Below are positions 1 through 8,775 of a stretch of 64,000 bases of DNA, piece by piece. The stretch comes from a bacterium (GTDB taxonomy: Bacteria; SZUA-182; DTGQ01), in contig JAILZY010000006.1 in assembly GCA_023512255.1 (NCBI GenBank), forward strand, positions 13,585 to 77,584. The letters are read 5' to 3'. Position 1 is the stretch's first letter, and every line of letters starts with the position of its first letter. The notes beneath the pieces were generated by a model. The model was not told the DNA's origin. It saw only the letters and a program-made list of their open reading frames with translations, and made no database searches. The translations under genes were made by a program, and so were the position numbers.

Positions 1-1250
1 AGGATCAGGAATGTTCCTCAGGAAAAATTCTGAAGACGCGAAGGTATATTCCAGGCATTTATCTGCGGGAAGCGATAACTAACCAGTTGCTTCAGGGACG
101 ATCCAGTCTAAATCGCTGCTTTGATCAACTATTCTGCGACTCTCACCGCTGGGGAATGGAGATTGTCTTTCCTAATTGCTATCCCAATCTCAATGCCTAT
201 ACCTTTCCTATGCTCCTTCCAGCCACAGCCAAAAGCTGCCGATGGAAGCCTGGCTTCATTGAAGATAGCAGTGTAGATGAGCAGCACGGAGTCTTTGATA
301 CCCTGCTGAATCAGATCATATTTCAGCAGGTGCTGGCTTCCTCTATTAAAAGTGGCCGCCCCTCCAGAAGCCTTACCCTTATTCAGGATGCCTACCACAG
401 GCTCATCGAGCAAGGAACCCTCTATTGCAACATTTGCCATGAGGTCGCCAATGCCTACCAGGTTGAATATGCCAAACCTCACGGCAATTTCAGACAGATT
501 CCTATCCGAACCTACTGGCAGCAGCCAGAATCGGCCCTCTCGAGCAGTCGCATAACTGCCGCCGCCTCTTTCGCTCATCATCGAAAGCAGCAGCAGGGGC
601 GATGTATTGAATTTATCAGTGAGCGGACCTGGTTTCTTGGCTTTTCCTTTCTTCCCACTTCTCTGGTTGATCTGTATAAGGAGTCCCTTGAGAGTATCAC
701 CCATCTTGGGGAAGGGAGCGGACAGAGAATAGGGAGGGTTGAGATTACAGTGCGCGAAATTGAAGATCATGAGTTATCCTTACGGCAGAGGGCCTTAAAG
801 CTTAACCAGAAATACCACAGGATTCAGAAGGAATACTCGCTTGGCCGAACGGATGCGTTGATCACGGTTAACATCCAGTCTGAAACCATTCTAAGAGACC
901 AAAATGGCAGACCGCTCACCAAGCTAAGCTCATCTTTCCTGGCAGAAACCATACAGCGGATTTACCGCCAGATTGCAGGTGAGGATCTTTCTGCCGAGGA
1001 GGCAGCCTGTCAGGAGGTAGTCTCTTTTTCGCGGCCTGTGTACACAGGTGGATGGAAATCAAGCCGTGAGGCCACAATAGCCATAGCCAGAGGAAGCGTA
1101 TTTGTTTTTTCTTTCCCTAACTTGAGCCCAAAACTTTTCCTGGCTCTCGATCATCTTGAAAAACATGGCCTCGGTGAAAAACGGGGTGAGGGGTATGGCC
1201 AGATTCTAATTTGCGATCCCTTCCACCTAGAAGTAGGCGGCGTGGTGTAA
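1..1250 (+). CDS. csx10: CRISPR-associated RAMP protein, Csx10 family (type III-D); 5' end lies outside the window
   Basis: The frame is open from position 3 (DQECSSGKILKTRRYIPGIYLREAI), giving the RAMP N-terminal YIPG motif. It has an internal G-rich loop (GEGSGQRIGRVEI), a second RAMP unit (GGW...ARGSVFVF) and a C-terminal G-loop GLGEKRGEGYGQILICDPFH. This double-RAMP layout is typical of Csx10. Confidence 0.78.
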   Translation, partial: DQECSSGKILKTRRYIPGIYLREAITNQLLQGRSSLNRCFDQLFCDSHRWGMEIVFPNCYPNLNAYTFPMLLPATAKSCRWKPGFIEDSSVDEQHGVFDTLLNQIIFQQVLASSIKSGRPSRSLTLIQDAYHRLIEQGTLYCNICHEVANAYQVEYAKPHGNFRQIPIRTYWQQPESALSSSRITAAASFAHHRKQQQGRCIEFISERTWFLGFSFLPTSLVDLYKESLESITHLGEGSGQRIGRVEITVREIEDHELSLRQRALKLNQKYHRIQKEYSLGRTDALITVNIQSETILRDQNGRPLTKLSSSFLAETIQRIYRQIAGEDLSAEEAACQEVVSFSRPVYTGGWKSSREATIAIARGSVFVFSFPNLSPKLFLALDHLEKHGLGEKRGEGYGQILICDPFHLEVGGVV

Positions 1251-1257
1251 CCACTGA

Positions 1258-1483
1258 TGAGGTTTTTGGAGGCTTGCGGTGCCAGCTTTTCTCCTCCTAC
1301 CTTTTCTCCTCCACAAAAAGCAAGGCAGGCAAATCCAGCCACCTGCTTTAGACCTGCTTTACTTTCTTCTTGTTTCCTTGCTACTTCGTTTTGAGGTTTT
1401 TAGAGGCTTGTGGTGCCAGCTTTTCTCCTCCTACCTTTTCTCCTCCACAAAAAGCAAGGCAGGCAAATCCAGCCACCTGCTTT
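1258..1483. repeat. 92-bp direct repeat (1258-1349 and 1392-1483, 2 mismatches) duplicating the 3' end of the MEMO1-family gene
   Basis: Direct sequence comparison: tgaggttttt(g/a)gaggcttg(c/t)ggtgccagc...ccacctgcttt occurs twice, 134 bp apart. Confidence 0.95.
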
Positions 1484-2394
1484 CTCGCTCTGGTGGTGTA
1501 GCCTGAATTTTGGTACTCAATGAGCTGAGGAGACCATTGTTTCTGTCTAGCTATCTCCATAAGAGTGGCTATGGAAGCTCTGCCGCAGGCCTCTGATGAG
1601 GACAAGGTTTTGAAATCAAATGAGGTTATGGCTTTGATGGTTTTTTGATCCACAGAAGATGCCTGATCAAAAGGGTAGCCTTCGGATAGATCCGAGCTAG
1701 CGATAATTAGGCATTCTTCAGTCAGGTATGGCAAAATCTGCCTAGCTAAAGTTGTCGGCTCAACCTTTTGGCCAACCAGGATGGGAACAAGCTCAAAACT
1801 CTTTACGGTCTGCTGGAGAAACGGAAGTTGCATCTCAATGGAGCGATCGGTAGCCTCGCCCTTAGGAGGAGCAACAAACCCAGGCTGTTGGCTTAGTTTG
1901 GCAGCTATGGATGAGAGCGGTATTTCTCCGAGGGGAGTCCGGTATGACTTTATGGCTGGGATAAAGGCACCAGAGACCTTACCCTTTTGGTGGACCGGAC
2001 CGAGGATAAAAACCCTCTTAATCGGCAAAGTTAATTGCTTGTAGCCTGCCGCGGCCACGATACCAGAGGAGAGGTATCCGTGATGGGGACAGATGAGGCC
2101 AAAGATTCTTCCCCGAACCTTGGCTCCTGAGGCCGCGGACAAAAGTCGCTGGATTATGAGTCGAAGGGTAAGCGGATCAGGAGGATAAAAACGGCTAGAA
2201 GCTTCTGGGCTGGCTTTGGAAGTGGTGGTGGATTGAGCTACAGCAGCTTTTCCTACTGCTCCGCCTGCTGCTGCCCTAGACTCTTTGGCCGCAGCTTGCC
2301 TGTTGTTTAAGGCTAGCGGAGAGGTGAAATTTGCCGCCCTGAGAAGCAAAAATCCTGCTAATGATAAAATAATCACCTGCCATCGATGGATCAT
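1381..2394 (-). CDS. MEMO1-family protein (AmmeMemoRadiSam system protein B-like) with N-terminal hydrophobic segment
   Basis: Motifs PHHGY, ILGPVH, SIEMQLPFLQ, IIASSDLS and ACG match the MEMO1 family pattern. N-terminal signal/TM segment (VIILSLAGFLLL) is followed by an Ala/Ser/Thr-rich linker. Confidence 0.85.
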   Translation of the reverse strand: MIHRWQVIILSLAGFLLLRAANFTSPLALNNRQAAAKESRAAAGGAVGKAAVAQSTTTSKASPEASSRFYPPDPLTLRLIIQRLLSAASGAKVRGRIFGLICPHHGYLSSGIVAAAGYKQLTLPIKRVFILGPVHQKGKVSGAFIPAIKSYRTPLGEIPLSSIAAKLSQQPGFVAPPKGEATDRSIEMQLPFLQQTVKSFELVPILVGQKVEPTTLARQILPYLTEECLIIASSDLSEGYPFDQASSVDQKTIKAITSFDFKTLSSSEACGRASIATLMEIARQKQWSPQLIEYQNSGYTTRARKQVAGFACLAFCGGEKVGGEKLAPQASKNLKTK

Positions 2395-2620
2395 TTTCTT
2401 ACTCCTTCAAAAGCCACTATACTCGTTCAAGTTAGGTTTTGATTGGCATGAATATTGATAATCACGCCGAGAACATATTTTTTAGGTTTTAAAAAGCCAC
2501 TAGGTTTTATTAAATGGGAGGCTCTTTCTCTGGCTATGATAGGGGGATCATCCCTTATTTATTGCGCCGCGGCTTGGTAAGTCAGAGCTAGTTGTCGCCT
2601 GGCCTACTGCCGCGGGATTT

Positions 2621-3154
2621 TCACTTATTGCGCCGCGGCTTGAGTCTTTTCCGATAGACGTATAGCCCCATGATGAGAAGGGTGCATGAAAATAAGGACA
2701 TTGCCAGGTACAGCTTGGATATCATGACTGGATGAGGCCGCCTTGCTCCAGGCCGAATTATTTTTAATGCCTCAGCGTGAATATCCAGCTCTCCCCCATG
2801 TTGGGGACATGCCCGGTGGAAGGTGCCGATAATTTCAACCATGTCCCCGCTATATCTATAGTCTCCGACATATCGGATGGATTTGACGAGCTCGGTCGGG
2901 CAATAGACTCCAAGGGCCTGAGAGCCGTCATTGACATTGATCCAACAATGCGTGCCACGGAGCATGATATCTCCAATCACTTCTCCACGAAATCGAACAA
3001 GTTGCCGATCCCATTGTTTGCTCTGGCGAAGGAGAGTGTCGCTGGACAGAAGCCTTGCTGTTGCCTGAGCAGGGCAGGAGGAAAGGGTGATGATCGAAAG
3101 AGCGATCAGGGCTGTGATGAGAAAAAGAATCGGTTTGTGCCTACTCACATTCAT
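2621..3154 (-). CDS. Exported, membrane-anchored protein with probable OB-fold, translationally coupled to trkH
   Basis: Signal peptide or lipobox (LSSC / AQA), beta-rich core (VRFRGEVIGD...GDMVEIIGTF), C-terminal TM plus basic tail. ATGA overlap with the trkH stop. Confidence 0.65.
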   Translation of the reverse strand: MNVSRHKPILFLITALIALSIITLSSCPAQATARLLSSDTLLRQSKQWDRQLVRFRGEVIGDIMLRGTHCWINVNDGSQALGVYCPTELVKSIRYVGDYRYSGDMVEIIGTFHRACPQHGGELDIHAEALKIIRPGARRPHPVMISKLYLAMSLFSCTLLIMGLYVYRKRLKPRRNK

Positions 3155-4653
3155 CGCCCCTTTGCCTGAGCCCAGATAAAGCCTAGCAGAGCAAAAATCG
3201 ACATAAATTCAAGCCTTCCGGCCCACATCATGAAGATATAGACCATCTTCATCACTGAGGGCATGGCTGCGCAGGTCAAGCCGCAAGAGAGGCCGCTATT
3301 GCTGCCCGCAGAGATAGAATCAAAGAGTGAAGGCAAAAGGGGATATCCATAGAAGAGCCCAACTACAGCCCCAAGGAGATATATACCCATGTAAGAGATA
3401 GTGATCAGGCTTGCGGCCCGCACATGGCGGTCTTCTAGGACCACATCCCGAATGTGGTGGAATTTATGGATGATTATTGCCGAATCAGGGGAAAAGATTC
3501 GATGGATATCGTTGATTAAGGCCTTAAAGAGAATACCCACCCGCAGGCCCTTGATCCCGCCAGCCGTGGAGCAGGCGCTGCCGCCAATAGACATGGCGAT
3601 CATAATGCCTATAGCCGCCAGGAGGTTCCAATGATTGACAAATTGCACAGCATAGACAGTCATGTTGCCAGTCGTGGTGTGAGCTGAAACTATCTGATAT
3701 AAGCAGCGGCGAAGCAAAGCGAAAACATTAGGATAGGCGAAGGCTTGCATCAAGCCGAGAAAGCTGAGGATACAGGTGATGGTAACCGTAGTTGAAAAGG
3801 AAACCGTTTCGATGTTACGGCGCACCTCATGGTAATTCCCCTGCCAGATCGAATAATGGAGAGCGAAATTGTAGGAGCCAATAACAAAGATAATAATGGT
3901 GATAAATTCGACCAGAGGACTATGATAGTAGAGGAGATTTTGGGTTTGGGGAGCAAATCCTCCAGTGCTCCAAGAACCCATGAAGATCCACAGTCCATGC
4001 AGCAGGGATCTGATCGGCGACATTCCAGCCAGCATATTAGCCACAAACAGCATAGCTCCGCCCACAGCCAGATAGGTCAGGCTGATCATCCAGATAGCCC
4101 TGGCTGTTTGGATGACATTGGGCATAAGGCGCTCGTCTTTGCCCTCTCCCACATACAGACGGTAAGCCCCGGCTGTTCCCTTGAACAAAAAGGTAATGGC
4201 CACTACGATCATGCCCTGGCCACCAAGGTAGGTTAAGAGATGCCGCCACATGTTCAGACCATGAGAGACATGATCTAGGTCTTGAATCAAGACCAGCCCA
4301 GTAGTGGTGTAGCCACTCATAATATCAAAACAGGCATCTAGGTAGGAGAGAAAGTGCCCGCTCAGATAATGGGGAATAGCTCCCAGTAGGGTAGCCAATA
4401 CCCAGGAAAAGGCAGCAGTAACCATGCCGTGCATCCAGAGCAGATCACGGTCAGTCTCACAGAGCATTATCAAACCAAGGCCAGTGATAAAGCAAGCGCA
4501 GATGCCAATGACAAAGTCGAGGGCCGGACCCCATTCGGCAAACAGGAGTGAGGTCAGCAGGGGCACGACCATGACCAGTCCTACGCCAATGATGATCTTT
4601 CCCGTATAGTAGCCGATTATTTTATAATCGTTCTTGTGAGGTCGAAGTAGCAT
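3151..4653 (-). CDS. trkH: Trk potassium uptake membrane protein TrkH
   Basis: Multi-TM protein with four pore-loop motifs (SGYTTTG, GSWSTGG, SAHTTTG, SAGSNSG), GGSACSTAGGIK and C-terminal MWAGRLEF. Confidence 0.93.
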   Translation of the reverse strand: MLLRPHKNDYKIIGYYTGKIIIGVGLVMVVPLLTSLLFAEWGPALDFVIGICACFITGLGLIMLCETDRDLLWMHGMVTAAFSWVLATLLGAIPHYLSGHFLSYLDACFDIMSGYTTTGLVLIQDLDHVSHGLNMWRHLLTYLGGQGMIVVAITFLFKGTAGAYRLYVGEGKDERLMPNVIQTARAIWMISLTYLAVGGAMLFVANMLAGMSPIRSLLHGLWIFMGSWSTGGFAPQTQNLLYYHSPLVEFITIIIFVIGSYNFALHYSIWQGNYHEVRRNIETVSFSTTVTITCILSFLGLMQAFAYPNVFALLRRCLYQIVSAHTTTGNMTVYAVQFVNHWNLLAAIGIMIAMSIGGSACSTAGGIKGLRVGILFKALINDIHRIFSPDSAIIIHKFHHIRDVVLEDRHVRAASLITISYMGIYLLGAVVGLFYGYPLLPSLFDSISAGSNSGLSCGLTCAAMPSVMKMVYIFMMWAGRLEFMSIFALLGFIWAQAKGR

Positions 4654-4838
4654 CAGGGTTAAAAGCCTCTTGCTGGGATAAAGAGGTCTTTAGAAGAATA
4701 GAAGTTTTAAGGCTAAAGCAATGATTGATGATATCAATACCAAAGCCAGGGGAAGGGATGACTCGATGAGCATTCCCCATATCGACAGCATAATCTTTCG
4801 CCCTAAGGCTTGCGAATTAGTTTGGTCCATAAGCAATC

Positions 4839-5507
4839 TTAATCCTCCAGCTTTCCTACCAGGATACTAAAGGCCTCCCGTTCATTTTCAATTGTAGTCA
4901 AGGCCACTACTTCATCTCCTTCCATCAGCAGGGTATCACCACTTGGAATGAGCAGATCTTCGCCCCGCAGAATGGATACCAGCACACAGTCTTTGGGCAG
5001 CTTAATGTCTCGCAATTTCTTATTCGTAACCGGCGAGGTGGGTGGAAGATCAACCCTCACAATGGCTAACTTGCCTTTTTTAAAGGTAAATAAGGGCAGG
5101 ATATCCTCCAGGGTAGTTTCCTCCGCAATAATTTTGGCGATGATCGAGGTGCTGTTGACCGGAACATCAATTCCTAACTGGCTAAATGAAGACTCATTCA
5201 GGGGATCATTGACTCTGGCCACTGTCCTCCTGATAGCAAAAGACCTTTGAGCCACCTGGCAGGCGATGAGATTATCCTCATCACTGCCGGTTACCGCAGC
5301 CAGAACATCAGCCCGCTCAATTCCAGCCTCCCGAAGATATCTTTTTTCACAGCCATTGCCATTGATCACCAGAACATTAAGCCGCTCAGCGATATATTGA
5401 CAGCGGTCCTCATCCTTTTCAATAACCACTACCGTATGGTTATCCGCAGCTAGGGATTTGGCCAGATGATAGCCTACCTTTCCACCTCCTACCAGAATAA
5501 TATACAT
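4839..5507 (-). CDS. trkA: Trk potassium uptake NAD-binding subunit (short RCK_N+RCK_C TrkA)
   Basis: MYIILVGGGKVG Rossmann motif, AVTGSDEDNL, and a C-terminal RCK_C domain (LVSILRGEDLLIPSGDT). Confidence 0.9.
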   Translation of the reverse strand: MYIILVGGGKVGYHLAKSLAADNHTVVVIEKDEDRCQYIAERLNVLVINGNGCEKRYLREAGIERADVLAAVTGSDEDNLIACQVAQRSFAIRRTVARVNDPLNESSFSQLGIDVPVNSTSIIAKIIAEETTLEDILPLFTFKKGKLAIVRVDLPPTSPVTNKKLRDIKLPKDCVLVSILRGEDLLIPSGDTLLMEGDEVVALTTIENEREAFSILVGKLED

Positions 5508-5663
5508 TCGATCCAGTGCCTCTTAATACTAAGATTTTAATTTTTTAATATAATTTTCTAATTTGTTGAATTTATTTTCCATTCAGTTATAGATTATAGA
5601 TATAGAGCTTGCATAGAGCTTGCATATTGGTACATCATTCAAGGGGATCATGGCCATTGCAAA

Positions 5664-6332
5664 CTAAAGTTTCGGTTGATTAAAGGCAGGACCAAGGAGG
5701 TCAAGAACTTCATTCCGCTTAGCCTGATTCAAGAGGCACAAAAGCGTGTCCTCTTTTCGCACCACCATATCTGGAGTGGGCATGAGCAGGTTTGAGCCAT
5801 TTTTGCAAGTAATGATGGTAAACACGCCTGGAACATTTAAGTTGCCATATTTTTTGCCGATAATTTTCTCATGCGATGGAACTTCCACTAACTCAAGCCG
5901 CCCTTCATATCCCCGATAACAAACGCGCAGGGAATCCTCAATAAAGCGGTCCCTGACTAACTGTGAAATCAGCACTGTAGTACTGATAATATCGAACCCA
6001 AAGTCCCGCAGGGTATCAGCCAGCTCCGGATCGTAGATTTTAGCTATGACCCGCTTTACCTGGTAAATCTTTTTGGCTATTTGAGCCATCATGGCGTTGC
6101 TGGTATCCGAATTGGTCATCAGGGCAATCCCATGAGCCTTTTGAATTCCAGCCTCTTCAAGCAGATTGCGGTCAGTACCGTTGCCTTGATAAGTGAGCCC
6201 GTTGAACAGAGAACCAAGGCGCTGAAAGGCCTGTTTATCCTTATCAATAACTACGATATCATGTCCTTCTTCGGACAATTGGTTGGCTAGCCTTGATCCT
6301 GATCTGCCGCAGCCGACAATAATGATGTACAT
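5664..6332 (-). CDS. trkA: Second short TrkA-family NAD-binding subunit
   Basis: MYIIIVGCGRSG motif, MTNSDTSN, RVIAKIYDP. Start moved to 6332 because AAGGGGAG lies just upstream. Confidence 0.88.
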   Translation of the reverse strand: MYIIIVGCGRSGSRLANQLSEEGHDIVVIDKDKQAFQRLGSLFNGLTYQGNGTDRNLLEEAGIQKAHGIALMTNSDTSNAMMAQIAKKIYQVKRVIAKIYDPELADTLRDFGFDIISTTVLISQLVRDRFIEDSLRVCYRGYEGRLELVEVPSHEKIIGKKYGNLNVPGVFTIITCKNGSNLLMPTPDMVVRKEDTLLCLLNQAKRNEVLDLLGPAFNQPKL

Positions 6333-6600
6333 TGCAAGACTCCCCTTTTTGCTGCCCTCATCTTTCGGCATCTGGCATTTTCTGCCTTGCCTACGAGGGT
6401 AAAATAATAAAATGAATTATAAGCCTTGCAATTTAAAAAATCAATAGATGTTGTTTTCTGAAAGATGTCTTTTCTGTCTTGAACAGAGGGTCTTTTTGTT
6501 TTATTATTTATGACTATTATATTTTATCTTATGGTTGCTGGTTTTTCTCCTCGAATTGCGGACCAAAGATTCGGGGAAAGAGATGGTAAGGAGAATGATG

Positions 6601-8775
6601 ATGCCAAGAATTGGTGGAATTTTTGTTACCGGCACCGACACCGGAGTGGGGAAAACCATTGTCGCGGCTGGTCTAGCCTTGGGTATGAAACGCCGCGGGT
6701 GGCAGGTAGGGGTTATGAAGCCCATTCAGACCGGTGCTGCCGAGCGCGGCGGGGAAAGAGGAGAGCTGTATTCGCCCGATGCCGAATTTATCCAAGCAGC
6801 TTTGGCAGGTGGAGGTAAATTGAAAGATAGCCCTGGCGAGCCTGAAGCCGGCGTTGCCCACTCCCCATTCCCCTTCAATCCTCACACTCCCTATGTGTTG
6901 AGGGAGCCTCTGGCACCTCTTGTTTGCGCCCGACTGGAAGGGTTAGAAATAGAGCCTGAGCGAATCATCAAGGCCAGCCAGTGGATGGAAGAGCACTACT
7001 CTTACCTGGTGATTGAGGGAGCAGGAGGGGTGCTGGTGCCTATCTGCCGAAATTATTTTATGATTGACCTGATTAAAGAGCTTGGCTTCCCAGTGGTTGT
7101 AGTAGCCAGGGCCTCCCTTGGCACTATCAACCATACGCTCCTTACCCTTGAGGCCCTGCGTAGTCGACAAATTAAGGTCCTTGGAGTGGTTCTCAATCAG
7201 CCGACTCCATCCCAGTCAGGTATCTGTGAGCAGACTAATCCCGAGGTCATCCAATCCCTTGGGCAGGTCGATCTTCTGGGAGTTTTGCCCCACTCGCCAG
7301 CCATAAGTCTGGAGAAGGGAGAGGTCGGCAATCTGGAAGAGCTGGTCCAAAAGCACCTTGATCTTGAGCCTCTTATCAGAGCGCTGGAGAGACCTTCCTC
7401 TCCCCTACCCTATTTACAGCGTCGTCGCTCCGCTTTGCTCAAGGAACTTGACAGGCGATACCTTTGGCATCCTTTTACCCAGATGCAGGAGTGGACCAGG
7501 GGAGAAGATCTGCTGGTAATTGAGCGGGGGGATGGAGTATACCTAGAGGATTCTGACGGCAGGCGATATATTGATGGAGTGGCTAGCCTTTGGACTAACG
7601 TCCACGGCCATCGCAAGAGAGAAATCGATCAGGCCATCGAGGATCAGCTGACCCGAATTGGGCACTCTACTCTGCTTGGCCTAACCCATGCTCCGGCCAT
7701 AGAGCTAGCCGAGCGTCTTATCAAAATCGCGCCGGCAGGCTTGAGCCGGGTTTTCTACTCAGATAACGGGGCCACAGCCTGCGAAATCGCTCTGAAGATG
7801 GCCTTTCAGTACTGGCAGCAGCAGGGTGAGGTTGAAAGAGCTAGTTTTGTCTACTTTGAAAACAGCTATCATGGCGATACTCTCGGAGCGGTCAGTGTCG
7901 GCGGCATTGACCTATTCCATCGGCTGTATAAGCCACTGCTTTTTCAAGCCGTTCGCTCGCCTTCTCCCTACTGCTATCGCTGCCCCCACCAGCTTGATCC
8001 CTTATCGTGCGGGCTTCGCTGTCTGGATGATCTTGAGCGTATTTTTAAGAAGCAGGCCGATAGAATCTGCGCCCTGATCATCGAGCCCTGCGTGCAGGGT
8101 GCCGGCGGCATGTTGGTTGCCCCATCCGGTTTTTTACGCCGAGTGCGGGATCTGTGCGACCAATACCAAGTGCTGATGATCGCCGATGAAGTCGCGGTCG
8201 GCTTTGGCCGCACTGGCAAGATGTTTGCCTGCGAGCATGAAGATGTCCAGCCAGATATCTTGTGTCTAGCCAAGGGGATCACCGGCGGATACCTTCCCTT
8301 GGCTGCTACCCTGACCACAGAGAGAATCTATGCTGGCTTTTTGGGAGACTACAGCCAGAAGCGGACCTTTTTCCATGGCCATACCTATACAGGAAACCCA
8401 CTAGCCTGTCGGGCTGCCTTGGCCAATCTAGATATCTTTGACCGAGAGCGGGTGATCGAGCGGGTTCAGGAAAGATCAAGGCAGCTAGCCGAAGGGCTTG
8501 GCCGCTTGTGGGAACTTGAGCACGTCGGAGATATACGGCAAAAGGGCCTCTTGGCCGGCATTGAGCTAGTCAGAGACAAATCGAGCCGCGATGCTTATAA
8601 ATTTGAAGAGAAGATCGGCATCAGGGTCATTCAAAAGGCTCGCACCATGGGGGTGATTCTCCGTCCCTTGGGTGATGTGATTGTGCTCATGCCCCCCTTG
8701 TCCATCAGCGCCAGAGAACTCGATGAGCTTGTGTCAGTTACCTTCGAGGCTATCAGGCAGGTTACGGAAGGGTAA
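6601..8775 (+). CDS. bioD-bioA: Fused dethiobiotin synthase / adenosylmethionine-8-amino-7-oxononanoate aminotransferase
   Basis: N-terminal BioD (FVTGTDTGVGKT, IEGAGG, LGTINHTLLT) is in frame with BioA (LWHPFTQM, YHGDT, IADEVAVGFGRTG, LAKGITGGYLP). Start chosen from the AAGGAG RBS; ATGs at 6595 and 6598 are alternatives. Confidence 0.93.
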   Translation: MPRIGGIFVTGTDTGVGKTIVAAGLALGMKRRGWQVGVMKPIQTGAAERGGERGELYSPDAEFIQAALAGGGKLKDSPGEPEAGVAHSPFPFNPHTPYVLREPLAPLVCARLEGLEIEPERIIKASQWMEEHYSYLVIEGAGGVLVPICRNYFMIDLIKELGFPVVVVARASLGTINHTLLTLEALRSRQIKVLGVVLNQPTPSQSGICEQTNPEVIQSLGQVDLLGVLPHSPAISLEKGEVGNLEELVQKHLDLEPLIRALERPSSPLPYLQRRRSALLKELDRRYLWHPFTQMQEWTRGEDLLVIERGDGVYLEDSDGRRYIDGVASLWTNVHGHRKREIDQAIEDQLTRIGHSTLLGLTHAPAIELAERLIKIAPAGLSRVFYSDNGATACEIALKMAFQYWQQQGEVERASFVYFENSYHGDTLGAVSVGGIDLFHRLYKPLLFQAVRSPSPYCYRCPHQLDPLSCGLRCLDDLERIFKKQADRICALIIEPCVQGAGGMLVAPSGFLRRVRDLCDQYQVLMIADEVAVGFGRTGKMFACEHEDVQPDILCLAKGITGGYLPLAATLTTERIYAGFLGDYSQKRTFFHGHTYTGNPLACRAALANLDIFDRERVIERVQERSRQLAEGLGRLWELEHVGDIRQKGLLAGIELVRDKSSRDAYKFEEKIGIRVIQKARTMGVILRPLGDVIVLMPPLSISARELDELVSVTFEAIRQVTEG

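What the first reader, a model, noticed from the sequence alone, without database searches (positions are those of the whole stretch)
2621..4653. Extracytoplasmic OB-fold protein translationally coupled to TrkH: candidate extra Trk subunit
Seen: an ATGA overlap with trkH, a signal peptide or lipobox, an OB-like core containing a Cys-Pro-Gln-His motif (HRACPQHGGELDIH) and a C-terminal TM plus basic tail. Known: characterised Trk systems consist of TrkH and cytoplasmic TrkA, with no established outside-facing subunit. Inference: this could be an uncharacterised extracellular sensor or accessory component of K+ uptake.
Basis: inference. Interest (0 to 1): 0.55.

Follow-up and report, generated by a model that had tools for sequence, protein, structure and literature searches.

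The report
Outside-facing OB-fold partner of TrkH
The small gene overlapping the end of trkH encodes a membrane-anchored barrel (OB-fold) protein facing outside the cell; it accompanies one whole branch of TrkH potassium channels in many bacterial phyla and is sometimes fused to them, so it is very probably an undescribed external subunit of this transporter.

Summary
ORF 2621-3154 (-) starts in an ATGA overlap with the trkH stop. It encodes a signal peptide, an OB barrel carrying HRACPQHGGELDIH, a C-terminal membrane helix and a basic tail (AF2 pLDDT 93.5).

- The protein belongs to a large family with no Pfam or NCBIfam model (1185 clusters at 50% identity).
- In every locus I could check, trkH lay directly upstream on the same strand. 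This covers 151 distinct trkH-OB gene pairs from Omnitrophota, Margulisiibacteriota, Planctomycetota, Spirochaetota, Bacillota, Actinomycetota and the window's own small phylum.
- 107 of the 151 pairs have the same 4-nt start/stop overlap.
- The linked TrkH proteins form one clade (support 100) separate from canonical TrkH/KtrB, which never has the partner.
- In one actinobacterial order, at least 10 species encode TrkH and the OB protein as a single conserved polypeptide.

Four residues (Cys116, His119, Asp124, His126) are replaced together in one subclade, so they form one site, possibly for a metal. A conserved 46-aa membrane peptide (4690-4830) lies between trkA and trkH.

The closest analogy is KdpC/KdpF on KdpA. 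Earlier notes of this scan report the same module on other DNA. My paper searches found no description of it. Its function is untested.

The parts
6416..6444 (-). Sigma-70-like promoter candidate upstream of the first trkA-like gene (TTGATT-17-TATAAT).
   Evidence: 10 of 12 consensus matches. This is a consensus match only, not evidence of function.
5664..6371 (-). Half-size TrkA-like RCK protein 1 (235 aa).
   Evidence: TrkA_N 1.5e-29; TrkA_C 4.4e-4, below cut-off; partial matches to TrkA models.
4839..5507 (-). Half-size TrkA-like RCK protein 2 (222 aa; RCK_N plus RCK_C).
   Evidence: TrkA_N 8.9e-31, TrkA_C 1.6e-15.
4690..4830 (-). Conserved 46-aa single-helix membrane peptide between trkA and trkH, with a W-G-x-L-I-E motif. 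The ORF tool lists it from a TTG at 4836; the conserved start is the ATG at 4830.
   Evidence: One search lists the ORF; 63% identical to the 46-aa ORF called at the same position in L001; a TM mini-ORF lies upstream of trkH in 80 of 89 loci, against 2 of 148 in a same-strand control region; a G-x3-E motif is present in 60. No Pfam hit.
3151..4653 (-). TrkH-family channel subunit (500 aa), a member of the OB-linked clade.
   Evidence: PF02386, 126 bits. TIGR00933, 197 bits, below its 331 cut-off; 8e-31 to V. parahaemolyticus TrkH (3PJZ), aligned over residues 18-496; filter glycines G119, G232, G329 and G454 and the D3 gating-loop residues are conserved; single clade, support 100.
2621..3154 (-). 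The OB-fold partner gene (177 aa plus stop). Its start overlaps the trkH stop (ATGA).
3062..3154 (-). Signal peptide (residues 1-31). Cleavage after AQA is predicted from the sequence pattern.
   Evidence: family-wide basic N-terminus plus hydrophobic segment, with AxA-type sites in the sequences read. The cleavage itself is inferred.
2738..3052 (-). Extracytoplasmic OB barrel (residues 35-139).
   Evidence: pLDDT 93-98 across the domain; OB fold, Z up to 12.7. Residues conserved across the family are G57, E58, W71, D76, G97, G103, G110 and G121.
2777..2809 (-).
   Evidence: CHDH in 129 of 151 members, replaced en bloc (mostly by D-D-T-R) in 22 members from high-GC Actinomycetota.
2624..2713 (-). 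C-terminal membrane anchor (L148-Y167) and basic cytoplasmic tail (R168-K177).
   Evidence: helix 145-171; C-terminal TM in 137 of 151 members, K/R-rich tails.

Best explanation
ORF177 is a dedicated extracytoplasmic accessory subunit of a distinct clade of TrkH-type K+ channels.

How it is made (partly shown, partly inferred). It is translated by coupling to trkH. It is exported by a signal peptide that is probably cleaved after AQA. It stays in the membrane as a type I single-pass protein. The OB barrel is held about 10 residues above the outer membrane face by a C-terminal helix, and the basic tail stays inside the cell.

What it joins (inferred). There it associates with the TrkH dimer, a conserved 46-aa membrane peptide and a cytoplasmic ring built from two half-size TrkA proteins.

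What is shown:
- the topology signals and the fold;
- strict gene linkage;
- restriction to one TrkH clade;
- the conserved overlap;
- natural fusions.

What is inferred: the barrel sits on the periplasmic face of TrkH, near the D0 loop and the clade-specific insertion after the D3 filter. There it would modulate access to, or stability or gating of, the pore. This would be analogous to KdpC at the mouth of KdpA, with the mini-peptide in the role of KdpF.

The family-wide residues E58, R66, W71, D76 and D104 are the likely contact or ion-binding face. The Cys-His-Asp-His cluster is one coupled site, probably binding a metal. It is dispensable in one subclade.
For: Linkage:
- trkH lies directly upstream on the same strand in 79 of 80 genome loci.
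- The same holds in all Bacillota and Actinomycetota loci and in all five metagenome contexts first examined.
- 151 unique pairs were collected. 107 have a 4-nt overlap (87 ATGA, 18 GTGA, 2 TTGA) and 11 a 1-nt overlap.

Specificity:
- In the window's phylum, the OB gene sits only beside low-scoring TrkH (49-128 bits on PF02386). TrkH copies scoring 183-217 bits never have it.
- In Bacillota, 286 of 301 genomes have a TrkH-family gene but only 17 have the OB gene. Those 17 include the genomes whose only TrkH scores low.
- In the tree, the 60 OB-linked TrkH sequences form one clade (SH-aLRT 100, stem length 1.11), with phyla intermixed. The pair therefore moves between phyla as a unit.

Fusion:
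- L252 4511-6793 (-) encodes, in one open frame, TrkH, a basic linker, a TM helix, the OB barrel and a second TM helix.
- The junction is read without stops in open frames of 739-941 aa in 10 genomes, down to 34% identity.

Topology and fold.

Channel intact: the four filter glycines and the gating loop are conserved.

Periplasmic features of the clade:
- D127, H128 and H244 are clade-specific, and there is a 4-residue insertion after the D3 filter.
- D46, Y334 and Q337 change in the same genomes in which the OB CHDH site changes.

Precedent: in KdpFABC, KdpC is a single-TM subunit with a periplasmic domain at the entrance of the KdpA selectivity filter, and KdpF is a single helix (10.1101/2021.01.09.426067, read).
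Against: - There is no direct evidence of physical contact or of any effect on K+ transport.
- The only structural attempt was inconclusive. It was a read-through pseudo-fusion of a relative (P0181, alignment A4), which gave pLDDT 80.9 and pTM 0.71. The tool gives no inter-domain error map.
- The co-switching of TrkH and OB residues occurs within one actinobacterial lineage, so it is confounded by descent.
- The C-terminal helix is poorly conserved in sequence. That argues against a tight helix-helix interface and leaves the ectodomain as the only candidate contact.
- The paper read cites complementation work in which the Thermotoga two-subunit TrkA plus TrkH were required for growth at low K+. 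So Trk systems with a split TrkA need not have such a partner. I did not test whether that TrkH belongs to this clade.
Confidence: 0.72

Rival explanations
1. Assembly or stability factor. The OB protein is needed only for membrane insertion, folding or protection of this TrkH clade. It would act as a dedicated chaperone or protease shield and would not take part in ion entry or gating.
For: The evidence is the same as for a subunit: linkage, overlap and fusion. All of it is equally compatible with this reading. KdpF and KdpC are themselves described as stabilising accessory subunits.
Against: A pure chaperone would not need a family-wide surface of E58, R66, W71, D76 and D104 plus a coupled Cys-His-Asp-His site. 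Permanent fusion to TrkH implies a 1:1 lifelong association rather than transient action.
Confidence: 0.15
2. Independent envelope protein that merely shares the operon. It would be an extracytoplasmic stress or cation-binding OB protein of the YgiW/BOF kind, co-regulated with K+ uptake but acting on its own.
For: The fold resembles periplasmic OB proteins: YgiW at Z 10.8 and CcmE at Z 9.7.
Against: Co-regulation alone does not explain several results:
- I saw no unlinked copy among some 200 loci across at least six phyla.
- The partner is restricted to one TrkH clade.
- The 4-nt overlap is kept.
- In-frame fusions are conserved.

In addition, there is no Pfam BOF match. The family occurs in both phyla classed as diderm and phyla classed as monoderm (classification from general knowledge), so it does not depend on an outer membrane or on a particular wall.
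Confidence: 0.08
3. Nucleic-acid-binding protein, as some database names say ('DNA-binding protein', 'nucleic acid binding OB-fold tRNA/helicase-type').
For: The names come from sources. Some members give weak, sub-threshold matches to tRNA_anti-codon (11 of 84) and to the ComEC N-terminal DUF4131 (16 of 84). The best structural matches are tRNA-synthetase, RPA and MCM OB domains.
Against: The domain is exported and membrane-tethered. The gene context is always K+ transport. The matches reflect the generic fold only: the E-value against LysRS is 0.7.
Confidence: 0.03

Closest known systems
Trk K+ uptake system: TrkH-TrkA of Vibrio parahaemolyticus (PDB 3PJZ, 4J9U), and the two-subunit TrkA ring TM1088A/B with TrkH TM1089 of Thermotoga maritima (PMC4380455)
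   Same: The window has a TrkH-family pore subunit with four P-loops, conserved filter glycines and the D3 gating loop. Two half-size RCK proteins are encoded upstream, as in the Thermotoga system.
   Different: The described systems consist of TrkH plus cytoplasmic RCK proteins only. Here a distinct TrkH clade always carries an exported OB-fold single-pass protein and usually a roughly 30-50-aa membrane peptide. This clade scores only 49-128 bits on PF02386 and falls below the TIGR00933 cut-off.
KdpC and KdpF, accessory subunits of KdpFABC
   Same: KdpA belongs to the same superfamily of K+ transporters as TrkH. KdpC is a single-TM protein with a periplasmic domain at the entrance of the selectivity filter, and KdpF is a single stabilising helix. 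The three membrane parts here have the same composition: channel, bitopic protein with an ectodomain, and mini-peptide.
   Different: There is no sequence relationship: searches give no KdpC or KdpF family match. KdpC's ectodomain is described as unique; that it is not an OB barrel is my recollection and was not tested here. KdpC is anchored by one TM helix, which I recall to be N-terminal. This protein has a signal peptide plus a C-terminal anchor. Kdp is an ATP-driven pump, which this system is not.
Periplasmic or membrane-anchored bacterial OB proteins: YgiW/YdeI (BOF family, PDB 1NNX), CcmE (1SR3), and the ComEC N-terminal OB (DUF4131)
   Same: These are OB barrels, and all are known (from the literature, not tested here) to lie outside the cytoplasm. 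Structural similarity is Z 10.8 to YgiW and 9.7 to CcmE. Some members give sub-threshold DUF4131 matches.
   Different: No family membership is reached by sequence. None of these is linked to a transporter of the Trk type. The conserved E58, W71, D76 and CHDH signature is specific to this family.
Class IIb aminoacyl-tRNA synthetase anticodon-binding OB domain (Pfam tRNA_anti-codon, PF01336)
   Same: This is the best structural match (1N9W, Z 12.7, rmsd 2.6 over 90 residues). The skeleton GD...G...GEL.IH is also shared with LysU.
   Different: E-value is 0.7 against LysRS. The window protein has no Pfam hit. The protein is exported, so it cannot meet tRNA.

Membership tests
TrkH/KtrB family (Pfam PF02386) | Profile match above the gathering score across the four MPM repeats. 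| tested here: met
   126 bits against a cut-off of 27; protein residues 47-487 match profile positions 5-487.
TrkH/KtrB family (Pfam PF02386) | One conserved glycine in each of the four selectivity-filter loops, and the D3M2 intramembrane gating loop. | tested here: met
   Alignment to 3PJZ. G119, G232, G329 and G454 and the GG..S.AGG.K..R loop are at least 90% conserved in both the OB-linked and the canonical sets (true numbering is listed position plus 13).
NCBIfam TIGR00933 (TrkH family potassium uptake protein, subfamily model) | Score above the curated cut-off of 331 bits. | tested here: not met
   197 bits. The window's TrkH is a divergent clade.
TrkA / RCK regulatory proteins | TrkA_N (Rossmann) plus TrkA_C domains. 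| tested here: met
   both domains are above cut-off in 4839-5507. In 5664-6371, TrkA_N is above cut-off and TrkA_C is below it.
OB fold | Five-stranded closed beta-barrel with a helix between strands 3 and 4. | tested here: met
   One search gives the strand order and the helix at 87-90. Searches give Z 10-12.7 to many OB domains.
Pfam tRNA_anti-codon (PF01336) | Profile match above the gathering score. | tested here: not met
   no hit for the window protein; only 11 of 84 members match, the best at E 3.7e-4.
BOF / YgiW-YdeI stress OB proteins | Sequence-profile match to the family. | tested here: not met
   The family does not appear. The structural Z of 10.8 is no better than that of unrelated OB domains.
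KdpC (accessory subunit of KdpFABC) | Sequence-profile match to KdpC. | tested here: not met
   No such match. The resemblance is functional and topological only.
Bacterial lipoproteins | Lipobox L-[AS]-[GA]-C at the end of the signal peptide, conserved in relatives. | tested here: inconclusive
   The window has LSSC followed by PAQA. Only 11 of 151 relatives have a lipobox-like string, and the Cys is absent in close relatives P0006, P0007 and P0010.
KdpF-like mini-subunit (for the 46-aa peptide) | Sequence-profile match to KdpF. | tested here: not met
   no Pfam family at E up to 1.

The most novel reading that the evidence does not exclude
A whole branch of bacterial TrkH K+ channels is a four-part machine: the pore, a split RCK ring, a mini-peptide and an external OB 'beta-subunit'. 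The Cys-His-Asp-His site on the ectodomain would bind a metal or respond to redox state at the outer mouth of the pore. K+ uptake would then respond to the external medium. That would make this an externally gated prokaryotic K+ transporter of a kind I know of no example of.
Probability: 0.25. Interest if true: 0.8.

Novelty: new variant of a known kind. Interest (0 to 1): 0.66.

Why it matters
Trk/Ktr systems are the main K+ uptake routes of most bacteria. They are described as a membrane pore plus a cytoplasmic nucleotide-binding ring.

The result here changes that picture for one branch. A conserved, phylum-spanning branch always carries an outside-facing OB-fold protein and usually a mini-peptide. 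The OB protein is sometimes fused to the pore. This would add external subunits to the architecture, parallel to KdpC and KdpF on KdpA. It would also open the question of whether K+ entry is tuned from outside the cell.

The family has at least 1185 sequence clusters and no Pfam or NCBIfam model. Some records call it 'DNA-binding protein', so a correct name would also fix annotation. It occurs in Bacillota and Actinomycetota. Earlier scan notes place it in gut Coriobacteriia, which I did not check; if that holds, experiments would be practicable.

Tried and rejected
- Fused forms by protein search. Two searches for longer homologues found none. Long 'open frames' of 400-1232 aa around the OB matches in high-GC Actinomycetota turned out to be an alternative frame staying open across trkH, not fusions. 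Real fusions were found only after fetching further loci.
- Docking by AF2. No multimer tool was available. I used a relative in which trkH and the OB gene are in the same frame (L004, two TGA read as W; P0181). Four such in-frame rows were combined with unpaired TrkH and OB rows. The first alignment (A3) misplaced the OB rows and was discarded after a check. A4 gave pLDDT 80.9 and pTM 0.71 with no error map, which is inconclusive.
- Sequence-family assignment. Pfam and NCBIfam gave nothing. A PDB profile search gave only LysRS at E 0.7. The ESM Atlas returned unnamed clusters and a weak lead to PF26045 OB_2TM_halo (score 0.83), which I did not follow.
- Lipoprotein reading. Not a family trait.
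- Riboswitch or other RNA upstream. No Rfam match in 2300-6900.
- Terminator after the OB gene. No convincing site on the minus strand.
- Literature. No paper holds both TrkH and OB-fold. Other searches returned nothing on an external Trk subunit.
- The first related-loci run, with A2, failed for lack of a conserved stretch. A1 worked.
Full report
**1. What is in the window**

On the minus strand the region reads, in order:
- a promoter-like site (6444-6416);
- two half-size TrkA/RCK genes (5664-6371 and 4839-5507);
- a small ORF (4690-4836 as listed);
- trkH (3151-4653);
- a 177-aa ORF (2621-3154).

The ATG of the last gene overlaps the TGA of trkH as ATGA. Its product has no Pfam or NCBIfam match. 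The genome holds one TrkH-family gene and one copy of this ORF.

**2. The protein**

With an 84-sequence alignment (A2), AF2 gives a confident model (pLDDT 93.5, pTM 0.78). It has an N-terminal helix at 8-25, a five-stranded barrel at 51-134 with the short helix typical of OB folds, a 10-residue tether, and a helix at 145-171.

Foldseek and an independent all-against-all structural search both identify an OB fold. The best hits are the anticodon-binding domains of Asp/Asn/Lys-tRNA synthetases (Z 12.7). RPA, MCM, YgiW (Z 10.8) and CcmE (Z 9.7) fall in the same range. This establishes the fold but not a function. At sequence level, only sub-threshold matches to tRNA_anti-codon and to the ComEC N-terminal DUF4131 appear in some members. 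That probably explains the names 'DNA-binding protein' given by some sources.

The topology follows from the sequence. A basic N-terminus and a hydrophobic segment are present in 146-147 of 151 members. An AxA-type site lies just before the conserved start of the mature domain. A C-terminal hydrophobic helix is followed by a K/R-rich tail. The lipobox-like LSSC of the window is not conserved (11 of 151). I therefore read the protein as a signal-peptidase I substrate that ends up as a type I membrane protein with its barrel outside the cell. Cleavage is inferred.

**3. The family and its neighbourhood**

An exhaustive HMMER search found 1185 clusters (at 50% identity) with E up to 1e-3, and 779 with E up to 1e-10. 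The neighbourhood surveys gave the following.

| Sample | Loci with trkH directly upstream on the same strand |
|---|---|
| Metagenome/MAG contexts at 41-64% identity | all 5 |
| Species-representative genome loci (Omnitrophota, Margulisiibacteriota/WOR-1, Planctomycetota, Treponema, Bacillota, Actinomycetota and others) | 79 of 80; the exception starts 86 bases from a contig end |
| Bacillota: 17 true hits among 301 genomes | 17 of 17 |
| Actinomycetota: 68 of 301 genomes hit (tally includes the unpublished genome G592; none of its sequence was used) | 30 of 30 fetched |
| Actinomycetota, more divergent two-piece matches | 21 of 21 |
| One actinobacterial class | 30 of 30 |

Pooling gave 151 non-identical pairs. 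The OB start overlaps the trkH stop by 4 nt in 107 of them (87 ATGA, 18 GTGA, 2 TTGA) and by 1 nt in 11. My start-codon choice favoured the codon nearest the stop. Even so, a start codon at that exact position in 71% of pairs is far above the roughly 5% expected by chance.

**4. The partner TrkH is a clade of its own**

The window's phylum has 20 species genomes, and 13 have the OB gene. In every testable case it lies beside a TrkH that scores only 49-128 bits on PF02386. The TrkH copies scoring 183-217 bits never have it, whether in the same genomes or in sister genomes.

Bacillota repeat the pattern. Of 301 genomes, 286 have a TrkH-family gene but only 17 have the OB gene.

A maximum-likelihood tree of 60 OB-linked and 32 canonical TrkH/KtrB sequences places all linked ones on one side of a branch (SH-aLRT 100, length 1.11). 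Inside that clade the phyla are intermixed, so the pair has moved between phyla as a unit. This was a quick search with midpoint rooting and some long branches; 58 further linked sequences were left out at random.

The clade keeps the K+ channel hallmarks, namely the four filter glycines and the D3 gating loop. It also has its own conserved periplasmic features: D127 and H128 after the D1 filter, H244 after the D2 filter, and a 4-residue insertion after the D3 filter (positions are listed number plus 13).

**5. Natural fusions**

Earlier notes of this scan reported fused copies, and I tested that here. Protein searches for longer forms found none. The long open frames in high-GC genomes were alternative-frame artefacts.

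Locus L252 is different. It carries a 760-aa ORF (4511-6793, minus strand) that contains, in one frame, the following parts:
- a full TrkH;
- a basic linker;
- a hydrophobic helix ending in an AxA string;
- the OB barrel, with its GE, W.NV, GD and AC.DH.GELEVH signatures;
- a final helix with a basic tail.

An ordinary split pair follows it. The junction region is matched end to end, without stops, in open frames of 739-941 aa in 10 genomes of that order. Identity runs from 99% down to 34%. The fusion is therefore a conserved gene and not an assembly error. The order of parts is exactly what the topology of the split proteins predicts.

**6. A coupled site and possible contact points**

Over all 151 sequences, G57, E58, W71, D76, G97, G103, G110 and G121 are at least 95% conserved. 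R66 and D104 are above 90%.

C116, H119, D124 and H126 occur together in 129 sequences. In 22 sequences from high-GC Actinomycetota they are replaced together, mostly by D, D, T and R. Concerted replacement indicates one structural or functional site. A Cys/His/Asp/His set suggests a metal, but this is inference. H126 and the GEL.IH skeleton are also shared with LysRS, so part of the motif may be purely structural.

In the same genomes, TrkH changes at D46 (D0 periplasmic loop), at Y334 and Q337 (the clade-specific loop after the D3 filter), and at S191, N262 and H400. This is compatible with contact between the barrel and those loops. It rests on one lineage, so it is suggestive only.

**7. 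A third membrane component**

The small ORF between trkA and trkH is conserved. It is 63% identical to a 46-aa ORF called at the same place in L001. The conserved start is the ATG at 4830.

A single-helix mini-ORF lies in the 260 nt before trkH in 80 of 89 loci. In a same-strand control region after the OB gene the count is 2 of 148. A G-x3-E motif is present in 60 of them. It has no Pfam family.

**8. Mechanism**

Shown:
- an exported, membrane-tethered OB barrel;
- obligate, translationally coupled and occasionally covalent association of its gene with one TrkH clade;
- an intact K+ filter in that clade.

Inferred:
- The barrel sits on the outer face of TrkH and modulates ion access, affinity, gating or stability.
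- The mini-peptide stabilises the membrane assembly.

The closest precedent is KdpFABC. There, KdpC's periplasmic domain lies at the entrance of the KdpA filter and was proposed to act as a filter or gate, and KdpF is a stabilising helix (10.1101/2021.01.09.426067).

My one structural test of docking was inconclusive (pTM 0.71, no error map). The rival readings are a pure assembly factor, an independent envelope protein, and a nucleic-acid binder. They are weighed in their own sections. The last two fit the linkage, clade restriction and fusions poorly.

**9. Novelty**

Papers on Trk describe TrkH plus cytoplasmic TrkA (PMC6987127 abstract; PMC4380455). No paper in the searchable library combines TrkH with an OB fold. 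Other searches found no external Trk subunit.

This scan has noted the same module before on other genomes (e1-2435642, e1-2402116, e1-2401428, e1-1391416, e1-1548846 and others). I rate it a new variant of a known kind of system. It is well supported by comparative genomics, and its function is untested.

Noticed in passing
window 4690-4830 (-): A conserved 46-aa single-helix peptide gene lies between trkA and trkH. It is present in 80 of 89 related loci and has no family name.
   Followed up: yes
L252 2138-6793 (-); also L179, L184, L189, L191: Several Actinomycetota carry two TrkH-OB modules a few kb apart or in tandem. In L252 the first module is fused and the second is split.
   Followed up: partly
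window 1381-2394 (-): An AmmeMemoRadiSam system protein B / MEMO-like protein (TIGR04336, 1.5e-47) with an N-terminal hydrophobic segment lies just downstream of the Trk cassette. A Memo gene also lies near the cassette in L003.
   Followed up: no
window 3-1250 (+): An open-ended ORF gives only a faint Cas_Cmr3 match (E 0.038). Another note of the scan reads it as a Csx10-like type III CRISPR gene.
   Followed up: no
window 6535-8775 (+): A single 746-aa ORF reads by eye as dethiobiotin synthase followed by a class III aminotransferase, that is, a BioD-BioA fusion. No family scan was run on it.
   Followed up: no
L005 735-4761 (+): In one relative, the trkH-OB pair follows a histidine kinase (DUF4118/HisKA) and an OmpR-type response regulator instead of trkA genes.
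   Followed up: no
P0065: One family member is named by its source as coming from a Candidatus Altiarchaeota archaeon MAG, so the family may reach Archaea. Its context was not examined.
   Followed up: no
window 2559-2576 and 2625-2642: The last codons of the OB gene (aagccgcggcgcaataa) recur about 65 nt downstream (seen). Another note of the scan also reports this.
   Followed up: no
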